Origin: Escherichia coli
GTDB taxonomy: Bacteria > Pseudomonadota > Gammaproteobacteria > Enterobacterales > Enterobacteriaceae
Length of the DNA: 64,000 bases
Strand: one strand, 5' to 3'
NCBI RefSeq assembly: GCF_013315695.1
Contig: NZ_CP054353.1
The first letter of the stretch is position 1. Each line of letters starts with the position of its first letter. The position numbers were made by a program, and so were the translations under genes. Below are positions 57,446 through 59,578 of the stretch, in pieces. The notes under the pieces are model-generated. The model did not search any database. It had not been told where the DNA came from and worked only from the letters and a program-made list of their open reading frames with translations.

Positions 57446-57530
57446 CATCATGACGGGCATACGCTTTCACTGACAGACGCCGACGGTTAAGTGTAAGATT
57501 ATCCAAACAGAACTCAACGCAGGGCACTCA
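57446..57530 (+). promoter_or_regulatory. Putative promoter/5' region of the ATPase-HNH operon
   Basis: 85-bp spacer after smrB stop; CTGACA-(17/18 nt)-TAAGAT resembles a sigma70 -35/-10 pair; weak AGGG ribosome-binding sequence before ATGATG. Confidence 0.35.
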
Positions 57531-58889
57531 ATGATGAATATCCGCACGCTTAAGCTCACTAATCTGGGGCGGTTTGAAGAACTTGACGTTCATCTGGCTC
57601 CAGTGGAGGAGTTCAAGAGCAATGTGACCGTTTTTATTGGTAATAATGGTGCAGGTAAAACATCAATATTAAAATCGTTGGCAACCAGCCTGAGTTGGTT
57701 CGTTGCCCGAGTTCGTACTGAAAAGGGTAACGGTAGCCTTATTCCTGAAGACGCTATTCTGAACGGTAGGAGTTCGGCGACAATTGAACTTCAGGTACTG
57801 AATACGCATCCAGCGACGGAGGCCGCTACGCCCTACCGTTGGTTGCTTGCCAGAACGGCCAGTGGGAAAAAATCGACCACCGCCTCCAGCCTGCAAGAGG
57901 CCAGCCAATTGGCTGCGTTTTATCGAGATCAATACACCCAGAATAGCGGGGCATCCTTCCCGCTTATCGCCTTCTATCCCGTAGAACGTGTCGTGCTGGA
58001 CGTGCCGTTGAAAATAAAAGAACGTCATAATTTTTTGCAACTGGATGGCTACGATAACGCCCTGAATCAGGGTATTGATTTCCGCCGTTTCTTTGAATGG
58101 TTTCGCAATCGCGAAGATGCAGAAAATGAATCAGGCTTACCGCAAGACGTTCTGGATAAGCTCAGTACCAGGATAGATCTCGATAACACCGTCTTAAATG
58201 CATTAACGGCAATCATGGCCTCGTCCCGGGATCGCCAGTTGACCGCCGTCAGAACGGCCATTAGTCGCTTTATGCCAGGGTTCAGCAACTTACGCGTCAG
58301 GCGTAAACCTCGCCTGCATATGTCGATTGATAAAAATGGCCAGACACTGAATGTGCTGCAATTATCGCAGGGTGAAAAATCACTGATGGCGTTAGTCGGC
58401 GATATTGCTCGCCGCCTGGCAATGATGAACCCGATGTTAGAAAACCCGCTAAACGGCGAGGGAATTGTATTAATTGATGAAGTGGACATGCACCTGCATC
58501 CAACATGGCAGCGTACAATCATCCAGCGTCTGACGACAACATTCCCACATTGCCAGTTTGTCTTAACAACCCACTCTCCTTTAGTGATCAGTGATTGCAA
58601 AGATGTGCTGGTTTATTCTCTGGATGATGGCGAATTAACGCAGCTCCCGTCTCTGTATGGGCAAGATGCGAATACTGTGCTTTTGAATGTGATGGATACG
58701 GATATTCGCAATGCGACAGTGGCAGAAAAACTTAACGATCTTTTGGATCTGATTCAGAAAAACGACTTTATCAACGCTAACGCTCTTCTGAATACGCTAA
58801 GCCTGGAACTTCCTGAAAACCATCTTGAACTGGTGAAAGCCAGAATGCTTCTGCGCAAACAGGAAATTAAACATGCGCGAAATAACTAA
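57531..58889 (+). CDS. ABC/OLD-type P-loop ATPase (AAA_21/AAA_15-like, no TOPRIM domain); candidate defence-system ATPase, Septu PtuA-like
   Basis: 452-aa ORF; Walker A GNNGAGKT (res 37-44), ABC signature-like LSQGEK (res ~278-283), Walker B IVLIDEVD (res ~312-319), H-loop HLHP, TTHSP motif (res ~346-350); not in the K-12 smrB-yfcO interval as I recall it. Confidence 0.75.
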   Translation: MMNIRTLKLTNLGRFEELDVHLAPVEEFKSNVTVFIGNNGAGKTSILKSLATSLSWFVARVRTEKGNGSLIPEDAILNGRSSATIELQVLNTHPATEAATPYRWLLARTASGKKSTTASSLQEASQLAAFYRDQYTQNSGASFPLIAFYPVERVVLDVPLKIKERHNFLQLDGYDNALNQGIDFRRFFEWFRNREDAENESGLPQDVLDKLSTRIDLDNTVLNALTAIMASSRDRQLTAVRTAISRFMPGFSNLRVRRKPRLHMSIDKNGQTLNVLQLSQGEKSLMALVGDIARRLAMMNPMLENPLNGEGIVLIDEVDMHLHPTWQRTIIQRLTTTFPHCQFVLTTHSPLVISDCKDVLVYSLDDGELTQLPSLYGQDANTVLLNVMDTDIRNATVAEKLNDLLDLIQKNDFINANALLNTLSLELPENHLELVKARMLLRKQEIKHARNN

Positions 58890-59532
58890 AGGGCAACCGC
58901 CGGCTAGTTTGCAACAGTGGGTGAGAGCAAAACCACGGGATAAAAATGCCAATCAGTGGTTTCAGGAACTTTATGCGCAAAAAAAATGGGATATCGTTGG
59001 CGATCTCAGCCAGCAGTGCGCTCAGGAACAATTTTATCTCTGTGCTTATTGCTGCGATCGCGTGACAGGTACAAACCGCGATACCGTTAATGAACATGTC
59101 GAAGCCAGGGATTTAGCTCCTGCTCGCAGTCTGGAATTCACGAATATCGTTGCAAGCTGCAAAACAAAAGGCCAGTGTGACGACTCGCATAAGAACCAGC
59201 CATTGCTGTTAACGCCGCTTATGCCGGAATGTGAAACCGAGTTTATCTTCAAGATCAGTGGTCGAATTGAAGGGACGACGCCGAGAGCTATCGATGCGAT
59301 TAAGGTACTCAACCTTGGCGATAGTGAACGTAATAATCGGGCATTAATTGAAAAACGTAAGCAGCTTTCCGACAACCTTCTGTGGGCTAATGGCATTGAC
59401 CCTTCAGAGGGGCTTGAGGATGACGATCTGCTGCAAGTGGTTATCGACGAATTACTCACCCCCGTCGACGGTTATCTGGCACCTTTCGCTCCCGTGGTGG
59501 CGAATATTCTAAAAAACTGGATGACCGCATGA
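58873..59532 (+). CDS. Cys/His-rich HNH-like putative nuclease, partner of the ATPase (Septu PtuB-like)
   Basis: 219-aa ORF overlapping the ATPase gene by 17 nt; AGGAAA ribosome-binding sequence inside upstream gene; CAYCC...NEH...N...C-x5-C-DDSH pattern compatible with a zinc-bound HNH motif. Confidence 0.65.
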   Translation: MREITKGQPPASLQQWVRAKPRDKNANQWFQELYAQKKWDIVGDLSQQCAQEQFYLCAYCCDRVTGTNRDTVNEHVEARDLAPARSLEFTNIVASCKTKGQCDDSHKNQPLLLTPLMPECETEFIFKISGRIEGTTPRAIDAIKVLNLGDSERNNRALIEKRKQLSDNLLWANGIDPSEGLEDDDLLQVVIDELLTPVDGYLAPFAPVVANILKNWMTA

Positions 59533-59544
59533 CATAACGGACAA

Positions 59545-59562
59545 CGGGGCCAGATGGCCCCG
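59545..59562. terminator. Hairpin between convergent HNH-like gene and yfcO
   Basis: CGGGGCC-agat-GGCCCCG 13 nt after the stop of the 219-aa ORF; no strong T-tract. Confidence 0.45.
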
Positions 59563-59578
59563 TCGTGTGGTGTATGCG

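What the first reader, a model, noticed from the sequence alone, without database searches (positions are those of the whole stretch)
57446..59578. Two-gene ATPase + HNH-like operon inserted between smrB and the yfc fimbrial cluster: candidate anti-phage defence system
In the K-12 arrangement I know, smrB (yfcN) is directly followed by yfcO. Here about 2.1 kb lies between them, carrying a tightly coupled operon: a 452-aa P-loop ATPase of the ABC/OLD (AAA_21-like) type and a 219-aa Cys/His-rich protein with an HNH-like motif. The two ORFs overlap by 17 nt. An ATPase plus small nuclease at a strain-variable spot is the hallmark of many defence systems. The closest described analogue by architecture is Septu (PtuA ATPase + PtuB HNH), which also occurs as a retron effector; I cannot verify family membership without a search. 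If the proteins miss the PtuA/PtuB profiles, this would be an undescribed variant.
Basis: partly seen in the sequence, partly recalled or inferred. Interest (0 to 1): 0.88.

Follow-up and report, generated by a model that had tools for sequence, protein, structure and literature searches.

The report
Known Septu (PtuAB) anti-phage operon

Summary
A 2,133-bp strain-variable insert (57446-59578) carries two co-oriented ORFs, 452 aa and 219 aa, overlapping by 17 nt. K-12 has only a 70-bp spacer at this site. The interpretation (a Septu-like defence system) is also correct. Both proteins match PADLOC PtuA and PtuB profiles over their full length (E 4e-168 and 4e-95), and there is no reverse transcriptase or retron RNA nearby. 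The system is not new. PtuA is 395/399 identical and PtuB 216/219 identical to Septu Ec^B88 of E. coli JBBDAGI-19-0041. That system was cloned with the same smrB 3' flank and characterised in Nat Commun 2026;17:3468 (PMC13096335). It protects against T5-like phages, T4 and T6. It needs PtuA K43 and D316 and PtuB H75 and N91, all present here. [quoted passage not shown] Among 5,426 complete E. coli genomes, 183 carry the insert and 136 of those have an intact gene junction. About 47 carry a 198-bp junction deletion, and about 475 (e.g. 536, LF82, ABU 83972) keep only a 271-bp ptuB 3' pseudogene remnant. Verdict: already known, a correct call, low novelty. The phage trigger is the main open question.

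The parts
56894..57445 (+). smrB (left flank; core gene). It encodes a protein identical to K-12 SmrB.
   Evidence: DNA is 93.3% identical to K-12 with 37 differences, all synonymous.
57446..57530 (+). 85-bp spacer upstream of ptuA. It has a sigma-70-like site (CTGACA-18-TAAGAT, 57470-57499) and no hairpin after smrB.
   Evidence: The promoter-like match is, where matches were no more frequent than in shuffled sequence, so it is weak evidence alone. The same spacer lies within the 300-bp upstream flank that sufficed for 'native promoter' expression of Septu Ec^B88.
57531..58889 (+). ptuA: 452-aa ABC/SMC-type ATPase. Walker A is GNNGAGKT with K43, the signature LSQGE is at 278-282, and Walker B is D316/E317.
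   Evidence: PADLOC PtuA E 4.2e-168, full length. Pfam AAA_21, AAA_23, SMC_N, AAA_15. PDB: retron Ec83 PtuA 3.8e-62, Ec78 PtuA about 1e-46, stand-alone PtuA 8ee4 1.2e-32. 395/399 identical to Septu Ec^B88 PtuA WP_000981116.1.
58873..58889 (+). 17-nt ptuA/ptuB overlap, with AGGA (58861-58864) 8 nt upstream of the ptuB ATG. This suggests translational coupling.
   Evidence: The same 17-nt overlap is conserved in homologues from Klebsiella, Sodalis and Dickeya.
58873..59532 (+). ptuB: 219-aa HNH nuclease of the TIGR02646 type. It has a Cys4 zinc site (C57, C60, C96, C102), catalytic H75 and N91, and a C-terminal helical domain.
   Evidence: PADLOC PtuB E 4e-95, full length. NCBIfam PtuB 1.2e-26 and TIGR02646 7.3e-11. 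The family profile hits only solved PtuB chains. These residues are invariant in 32 homologues. 216/219 identical to Septu Ec^B88 PtuB WP_016243072.1.
59533..59578 (.). 46-bp spacer with a GC-rich hairpin (core stem 59544-59551 / 59556-59563) between the convergent ptuB and yfcO-type genes. It is probably a bidirectional terminator.
   Evidence: RNA fold gives -22.1 kcal/mol on the + strand and -22.7 on the - strand. The simple terminator scan did not call it because there is no T-run. The hairpin is retained in the B2 remnant.
59579..60424 (-). StfH/YfcO-family fimbrial adhesin gene (right flank). This is a divergent allele.
   Evidence: It is about 72% identical to K-12 yfcO and about 71% identical to the SMS-3-5 allele.

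Best explanation
This is a stand-alone (type I) Septu anti-phage system, an allele of the experimentally characterised 'Septu Ec^B88'. PtuA (an ABC/SMC-family ATPase) and PtuB (an HNH nuclease) are made from one translationally coupled operon with its own promoter in the 85-bp spacer after smrB. They are expected to form a PtuA-PtuB complex that stays inactive in uninfected cells. [quoted passage not shown] The outcome also depends on the PtuA Walker A and B residues. Cleavage starves translation, slows the infected cell and reduces phage yield, in the manner of abortive infection. Phages escape by supplying extra tRNA-Tyr. Shown here: family membership, intact catalytic residues, near-identity to the tested system at the same locus, absence of a retron, and strain variability. 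Taken from the literature for the 99%-identical allele: the protection spectrum, the mutant phenotypes and tRNA-Tyr cleavage. Inferred: that this allele is equally active, the complex stoichiometry (6:2 in the more distant ATCC 25922 Septu), and how infection is sensed, which is unknown.
For: PADLOC PtuA and PtuB match full length at E 4.2e-168 and 4e-95. Pfam identifies the ATPase as ABC/SMC type. PDB relatives are all PtuA or PtuB. K43, D316, H75 and N91 are present and the PtuB Cys and His/Asn residues are invariant across the family. PtuA is 395/399 and PtuB 216/219 identical to Septu Ec^B88, and the cloned fragment's 5' flank aligns colinearly to window 57236-57633, covering the smrB 3' end and the spacer. 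PMC13096335 reports defence against Demerecviridae, T4 and T6, loss of defence with K43A, D316A, H75A or N91A, and infection-dependent tRNA-Tyr cleavage at C48/A49. There is no RT gene and no Rfam hit in 55500-61000. The system is absent from K-12 and present in 183 of 5,426 genomes. The three PtuB substitutions (S168N, A189V, I198V) are not in the invariant or nearly invariant columns. The pair and its 17-nt overlap are conserved in other genera, once inside a type I R-M operon.
Against: No experiment was done on this exact allele, which differs at seven or more residues. The last 53 residues of the published PtuA were cut off in the stored supplement and could not be compared. Pfam finds nothing in PtuB. 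The AlphaFold model of PtuB was poor in the HNH core, so the nuclease fold rests on profile matches and published mutants. Other Septu and retron PtuAB complexes nick DNA in vitro, so tRNA-Tyr loss could in principle be indirect. Direct in vitro tRNA cleavage by this PtuAB is not reported in the text I read.
Confidence: 0.93

Rival explanations
1. It is Septu, but the primary lethal activity is DNA nicking or cleavage held in check by ATP, as described for the stand-alone E. coli ATCC 25922 Septu. On this reading tRNA-Tyr loss is secondary.
For: Stand-alone PtuAB (8ee4/8ee7) nicks plasmid DNA and is inhibited by ATP. Retron Ec78 PtuAB also nicks supercoiled DNA in vitro, and Ec83 PtuAB cuts ssDNA. 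The PtuB profile matches 8ee7 PtuB at 9.3e-7.
Against: For the 99%-identical allele, tRNA-fragment sequencing and Northern blots show infection-dependent cleavage at C48/A49 of tRNA-Tyr, and overexpressed tRNA-Tyr restores phage growth. PtuA here is closer to retron I-A PtuA, whose system targets tRNA-Tyr, than to the ATCC 25922 PtuA (213.8 and 163.9 bits against 116.6 bits).
Confidence: 0.1
2. It is the orphaned effector module of a degraded type I-A retron (Septu type II) that has lost its RT and ncRNA.
For: PtuA is most similar to retron Ec83 and Ec78 PtuA among solved structures. The PADLOC retron models ATPase_I-A and HNH_I-A also hit, at 4.8e-114 and 2.4e-22.
Against: Only 85 bp separate smrB from ptuA, and there is no RT remnant or Rfam hit. 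The match to ATPase_I-A starts at profile position 53 and the PDB alignments start near chain residue 67, so the retron-specific N-terminal extension that binds RT and ncRNA is absent. Scores are below the NCBIfam retron equivalog cut-offs (350.6 against 500, and 93.9 against 150). The RT-less pair works on its own and is not toxic. Homologues in four other genera are also RT-less pairs.
Confidence: 0.04
3. The pair is non-functional or decaying in this strain, as at many other E. coli loci where only remnants survive.
For: About 475 genomes keep only a ptuB 3' pseudogene, and about 47 carry a 198-bp deletion that truncates both genes. This shows frequent loss at the site.
Against: Both ORFs are intact and full length here, with all catalytic residues. 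The DNA is 100% identical to another isolate and 99% or more identical in 172 genomes. The substitutions relative to the tested allele are conservative and lie outside conserved columns.
Confidence: 0.05

Closest known systems
Septu Ec^B88 (PtuA WP_000981116.1 / PtuB WP_016243072.1; E. coli JBBDAGI-19-0041; PMC13096335)
   Same: Same two genes, same lengths (452 and 219 aa) and the same locus directly downstream of smrB. PtuA is 395/399 identical over the stretch that could be compared and PtuB 216/219. All four residues shown to be essential (K43, D316, H75, N91) are present.
   Different: PtuA differs at E19D, P70L, A220T and L228I. PtuB differs at S168N, A189V and I198V. The flanking DNA is 95.7% identical. 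The last 53 residues of PtuA were not compared because the supplement cell was truncated.
Stand-alone Septu of E. coli ATCC 25922 (PDB 8ee4/8ee7/8eea; Li et al. 2024 NSMB, cited)
   Same: Same two-gene ATPase + HNH architecture, no retron, and a PtuA of similar length (465 aa against 452 aa). PtuA aligns end to end (3-445 against 2-458, E 1.2e-32). PtuB matches by profile (9.3e-7).
   Different: It is a distant subfamily with much lower scores than the retron PtuAs. The reported activity is ATP-inhibited DNA nicking by a 6:2 complex, whereas the Ec^B88 type cleaves tRNA-Tyr.
Retron type I-A effectors PtuAB (Retron-Eco7/Ec78 and Eco4/Ec83; Septu type II)
   Same: These are the closest solved PtuA relatives (Ec83 3.8e-62; Ec78 about 1e-46). 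Retron-Eco7 has the same cellular target, the tRNA-Tyr variable loop, and also acts on T5-like phages.
   Different: There is no RT, ncRNA or msDNA here. PtuA lacks the N-terminal extension of about 65 residues. Scores are below the NCBIfam equivalog cut-offs. Retron PtuAB alone is toxic and is held in check by RT-msDNA, whereas this pair is self-controlled.
Other ABC-ATPase defence systems (PARIS AriA, Gabija GajA/OLD)
   Same: The ATPase core is of the ABC/SMC type. AriA is a weak PDB match at about 1e-6, alongside Pfam AAA_21 and AAA_15.
   Different: There is no Toprim domain. The partner is an HNH protein, not AriB or GajB. The similarities are many orders of magnitude weaker than to PtuA.

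Membership tests
Septu type I (stand-alone PtuA + PtuB) | An ABC/SMC-type ATPase that matches PtuA profiles over its full length | tested here: met
   PADLOC PDLC00271 E 4.2e-168, residues 2-450 against profile positions 1-420 of 421. Pfam AAA_21, AAA_23, SMC_N, AAA_15.
Septu type I (stand-alone PtuA + PtuB) | An HNH (TIGR02646-type) nuclease that matches PtuB profiles | tested here: met
   PADLOC PDLC00344 E 4e-95, residues 1-218 against profile positions 1-212 of 213. NCBIfam PtuB 1.2e-26. The family profile hits solved PtuB chains only.
Septu type I (stand-alone PtuA + PtuB) | The two genes are adjacent, co-oriented and in the order ptuA then ptuB | tested here: met
   The genes overlap by 17 nt on the + strand. 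The overlap is conserved in other genera.
Septu type I (stand-alone PtuA + PtuB) | Intact catalytic motifs: Walker A and B, ABC signature, H-N-H and the zinc-binding Cys residues | tested here: met
   K43, D316/E317 and LSQGE 278-282 in PtuA. C57, C60, H75, N91, C96 and C102 in PtuB, all invariant in 32 homologues.
Septu type I (stand-alone PtuA + PtuB) | No associated reverse transcriptase or msr-msd RNA | tested here: met
   The neighbours are smrB and a yfcO-type adhesin gene. There is no Rfam hit at E<=1 in 55500-61000.
Septu type I (stand-alone PtuA + PtuB) | Confers protection against phage | not testable with these tools
   This was shown for the 99%-identical allele cloned from the same locus. 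Defence is 10- to 100-fold against several BASEL phages, and T4 and T6 are reduced. It was not tested for this allele.
Septu type I (stand-alone PtuA + PtuB) | PtuA oligomer clamps PtuB through the PtuA C-terminal extension (6:2 in the ATCC 25922 system) | not tested
   This is known only from structures of more distant relatives. The C-terminal 55 residues of PtuA are present here, and they are the part deleted in E57-type variants.
Retron type I-A (Septu type II; Ec78/Ec83) | An RT gene plus msr-msd ncRNA next to ptuAB | tested here: not met
   There is no RT ORF and no RNA family hit. Only 85 bp lie upstream of ptuA.
Retron type I-A (Septu type II; Ec78/Ec83) | A PtuA N-terminal extension that binds RT and ncRNA | tested here: not met
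   The PADLOC ATPase_I-A match starts at profile position 53 of 508. The PDB alignments to Ec78 and Ec83 PtuA start at chain residues 60-73. The role of the extension is described.
Retron type I-A (Septu type II; Ec78/Ec83) | Scores above the NCBIfam equivalog cut-offs (NF041760 PtuA, NF041761 PtuB) | tested here: not met
   350.6 bits against a cut-off of 500, and 93.9 bits against a cut-off of 150.

The most novel reading that the evidence does not exclude
This smrB-linked Septu lineage is a retron-free relative of the retron I-A effectors: PtuA is closest to theirs and the target, tRNA-Tyr, is the same. Yet it is non-toxic without any RT-msDNA antitoxin. It may therefore sense infection through a protein-only trigger different from both known control modes, which are ATP-level inhibition in the ATCC 25922 Septu and msDNA sequestration in retrons. 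The trigger was not identified in the 2026 study, where the tail-sheath candidate tested negative.
Probability: 0.3. Interest if true: 0.45.

Novelty: already known. Interest (0 to 1): 0.15.

Why it matters
The result confirms that reading raw sequence can flag a real defence system at a strain-variable site. The system itself is already in PADLOC and NCBIfam, and a near-identical allele has been studied in depth. The remaining value is modest. First, the trigger and the means of self-inhibition of this tRNA-Tyr-cleaving PtuAB are unknown. Second, the smrB-yfcO site records gain and repeated decay of a defence system across E. coli, with intact, junction-deleted and 3'-remnant states, which could be used to study its cost and turnover. 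Third, many RefSeq genomes still label PtuB 'hypothetical protein' and Pfam has no model for it, which is an annotation gap.

Tried and rejected
1. A plain phmmer search of PtuB against the PDB found nothing. A family profile was needed to reach solved PtuB chains.

2. Pfam finds nothing in PtuB even at E<=10.

3. The AlphaFold2 model of PtuB from a 32-sequence alignment had mean pLDDT 63.5 and under 50 across the HNH core, residues 50-100. I judged it too poor for a fold search and ran none.

4. I tested whether the insert is a mobile element. It has no flanking direct repeats beyond chance 6-mers. E. coli plasmids carry no copy. Plasmid and phage collections hold only relatives at 70% identity or less. 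Rejected.

5. I tested whether adjacency to smrB (a ribosome-collision endonuclease) reflects a functional link with tRNA depletion. Homologues in Klebsiella, Sodalis, Dickeya and Salmonella are never next to smrB. Rejected as an E. coli-specific accident of insertion.

6. I looked for a retron or other RNA element and found no Rfam hit at E<=1.

7. The original stand-alone Septu structure paper (PMC12318543) is not held in the library. Its findings are cited second-hand.

8. A literature search for this hotspot (Septu with smrB, yfcO or yfcN) returned nothing relevant.
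Full report
**Observation**

The window holds two co-oriented ORFs on the + strand. One runs 57531-58889 (452 aa) and the other 58873-59532 (219 aa), and they overlap by 17 nt. They lie between smrB (56894-57445, +) and a StfH/YfcO-family adhesin gene (59579-60424, -). RefSeq annotates the same two CDS with the same overlap in a 99.9%-identical genome, as 'AAA family ATPase' and 'HNH endonuclease family protein'.

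K-12 MG1655 has only a 70-bp smrB-yfcO spacer with its own hairpin and no trace of the genes. The insert has lower GC content (about 44-50%) than its flanks (about 54-57%).
- PtuA has Walker A GNNGAGKT with K43, the signature LSQGE at 278-282, and Walker B D316/E317.
- The small protein has C57-x2-C60, H75, N91, C96 and C102.

**What it is**

Both proteins match PADLOC Septu profiles over their full length. PtuA matches PDLC00271 at E 4.2e-168, and PtuB matches PDLC00344 at E 4e-95. NCBIfam's retron-Ec78 PtuA and PtuB equivalog models also hit, but below their curated cut-offs (350.6 against 500 bits, and 93.9 against 150 bits). Pfam sees the ATPase as AAA_21, AAA_23, SMC_N and AAA_15 and sees nothing in PtuB.

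Every significant PDB match of PtuA is a PtuA, apart from weak AriA hits at about 1e-6:
- retron Ec83 PtuA, 3.8e-62
- retron Ec78 PtuA, about 1e-46
- stand-alone PtuA 8ee4, 1.2e-32

PtuB alone found no PDB match. A profile built from 32 diverse homologues then hit only PtuB/HNH chains: Ec83 PtuB at 4.4e-9, stand-alone 8ee7 at 9.3e-7, and 9n69 'TIGR02646 family' at 1.3e-6. In that alignment C57, C60, C61, H75, N91, C96, C102 and H106 are invariant.

There is no reverse transcriptase ORF and no Rfam hit at E<=1 in 55500-61000. PtuA also lacks the retron-specific N-terminal extension. The ATPase_I-A profile match starts at position 53, and the PDB alignments start near chain residue 67. This is therefore a stand-alone type I Septu system.

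**It is already characterised**

A 2026 paper (PMC13096335, Nat Commun 17:3468) studied 'Septu Ec^B88' from E. coli JBBDAGI-19-0041. Its Supplementary Data 8 gives PtuA as WP_000981116.1 (452 aa) and PtuB as WP_016243072.1 (219 aa), together with the start of the cloned fragment.

The window's PtuA is 395/399 identical over the printed stretch, differing at E19D, P70L, A220T and L228I. PtuB is 216/219 identical, differing at S168N, A189V and I198V. The 5' end of the cloned fragment aligns colinearly to window 57236-57633 with 381/398 matches. That stretch covers the 3' end of smrB, the same 85-bp spacer and the start of ptuA. The published system therefore comes from the same chromosomal locus.

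The paper reports the following:
- The clone was driven by its native 300-bp upstream flank in DH10B.
- It protects mainly against Demerecviridae (T5-like phages), and against T4 and, moderately, T6, but not T2.
- PtuA K43A or D316A, and PtuB H75A or N91A, abolish defence. All four residues are present in the window proteins.
- The behaviour resembles abortive infection.
- On T6 infection, host tRNA-Tyr is cleaved in the variable loop at C48/A49.
- Supplying tRNA-Tyr, or SegB-driven amplification of the phage's own tRNA-Tyr gene, restores phage growth.

The three PtuB substitutions in the window allele are not in the invariant or nearly invariant columns of the family. I therefore infer, without having shown it, that this allele is active.

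**Mechanism: what is shown and what is inferred**

- Shown here: family membership, intact motifs, the operon structure with a 17-nt overlap and AGGA 8 nt upstream of the ptuB ATG, absence of a retron, and strain variability.
- Shown in the literature for the 99% allele: the phage spectrum, the need for both the ATPase and HNH sites, and infection-dependent tRNA-Tyr cleavage.
- Inferred from more distant relatives: PtuA oligomers clamp PtuB through the PtuA C-terminal extension. The complex is 6:2 in the ATCC 25922 Septu, whose DNA nicking is inhibited by ATP.
- Unknown: the phage trigger. A tail-sheath candidate tested negative.
- Also unknown: how this retron-like PtuAB stays silent without the RT-msDNA antitoxin, given that Retron-Eco7 PtuAB alone is toxic.
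- Still possible: DNA nicking could be the primary activity. The tRNA-Tyr rescue data disfavour this.

**Population picture**

Among 5,426 complete E. coli genomes, the locus falls into these states:

| State | Genomes | Source |
|---|---|---|
| At least 80% of the insert present (always one chromosomal copy) | 183 | |
| Intact ptuA/ptuB junction | 136 (2.5%) | |
| E57-type 198-bp junction deletion (by subtraction) | about 47 | |
| Only the last 271 bp plus the hairpin | about 475 | |

The 198-bp deletion lies between imperfect 10-nt repeats (GCGACAGTGG at 58713-58722 and GCAACAGTGG at 58911-58920). It removes the C-terminal 55 residues of PtuA, which is the PtuB-clamping extension, and the first 13 residues of PtuB.

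The 271-bp remnant corresponds to window 59308-59578. Strains 536, LF82, ABU 83972 and A26 carry it. It reads in frame as the PtuB C-terminus behind a stop codon, so it is a pseudogene scar.

No flanking repeat longer than 6 nt marks the insert. Plasmid and phage collections hold only relatives at 70% identity or less. The same Septu operon is linked to at least two very different yfcO alleles, about 71% identical between the window and SMS-3-5. This points to exchange by homologous recombination in a diverse region.

Homologues at 68-73% identity in Klebsiella aerogenes (between hsdS and hsdR of a type I R-M operon), Sodalis, Dickeya and Salmonella (integrase-linked, with a split ptuA) keep the pair and the 17-nt overlap. 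None is next to smrB. The smrB adjacency therefore carries no functional signal.

**Verdict**

The system is a member of Septu type I and in effect the same system as Septu Ec^B88, so it is already known. Interest is low (0.15). What remains of interest is the unknown trigger and self-inhibition of this tRNA-Tyr-targeting, retron-free PtuAB, and the record of decay at the locus.

Noticed in passing
window 59308-59578; L004 2453-2771 (strain 536); L002 3553-3871 (strain A26): About 475 of 5,426 E. coli genomes, including 536, LF82 and ABU 83972, lack the operon but keep a 271-bp remnant at 94-97% identity plus the terminal hairpin. The remnant reads in frame as the PtuB C-terminus after a stop codon. 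It is a pseudogene scar showing the system was once present and then lost.
   Followed up: yes
window 58713-58920; L006 (strain E57) 2586-4389: A recurrent 198-bp deletion lies between imperfect 10-nt repeats (GCGACAGTGG and GCAACAGTGG). It truncates PtuA by its C-terminal 55 aa and PtuB by its N-terminal 13 aa. About 47 genomes carry it, counted as 183 with the insert minus 136 with an intact junction. These copies are probably inactive yet are still annotated as two CDS.
   Followed up: partly
window 56894-57445 (smrB) and upstream aroC and prmB: smrB differs from K-12 at 37 of 552 nt (93.3% identity), yet the protein is 100% identical, so every difference is synonymous. aroC is 94.9% and prmB 96.1% identical to K-12, while the 165-bp prmB-smrB intergenic region is 100% identical. 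Only 261 of 5,424 matching genomes reached 95% identity or more with the 3.5-kb smrB-to-yfcO query, and for most of them the match covered smrB alone. This suggests an old, recombining haplotype around the variable site.
   Followed up: partly
window 59579-60424 (yfcO-type adhesin, - strand): The fimbrial tip-adhesin gene next to the insert is highly polymorphic, at about 72% identity to K-12 yfcO and about 71% to SMS-3-5. The same Septu operon (98.5% identical) is linked to different yfcO alleles. Only 71 genomes share both the insert and this adhesin allele.
   Followed up: partly
L007/L008 3632-5660 (Klebsiella aerogenes): A 69%-identical ptuAB pair is inserted inside a type I restriction-modification operon, in the order hsdM, hsdS, ptuA, ptuB, hsdR. 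Next come a YgjP-like (PF01863) gene, an unannotated ORF and a PDDEXK_4 gene, so this is a composite defence island.
   Followed up: no
L014 3631-5660 (Salmonella enterica): A 68%-identical ptuB lies near a phage-type integrase. Its ptuA is split into 167-aa and 288-aa ORFs in L014, and no ptuA was called at all in L013. This looks like another decaying copy.
   Followed up: no
window 39265-39336 (-) and 5474-5516 (-): Two Rfam gathering-level hits lie elsewhere in the window: naRNA4 (65.1 bits) and the nuoG cis-regulatory RNA (50.3 bits). The window has no tRNA genes. Neither hit is related to the finding.
   Followed up: no
window 58873-59532 (ptuB): There is an annotation gap. Pfam-A has no model that detects this PtuB even at E<=10, and many RefSeq genomes label it 'hypothetical protein'. 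PADLOC and NCBIfam recognise it.
   Followed up: yes
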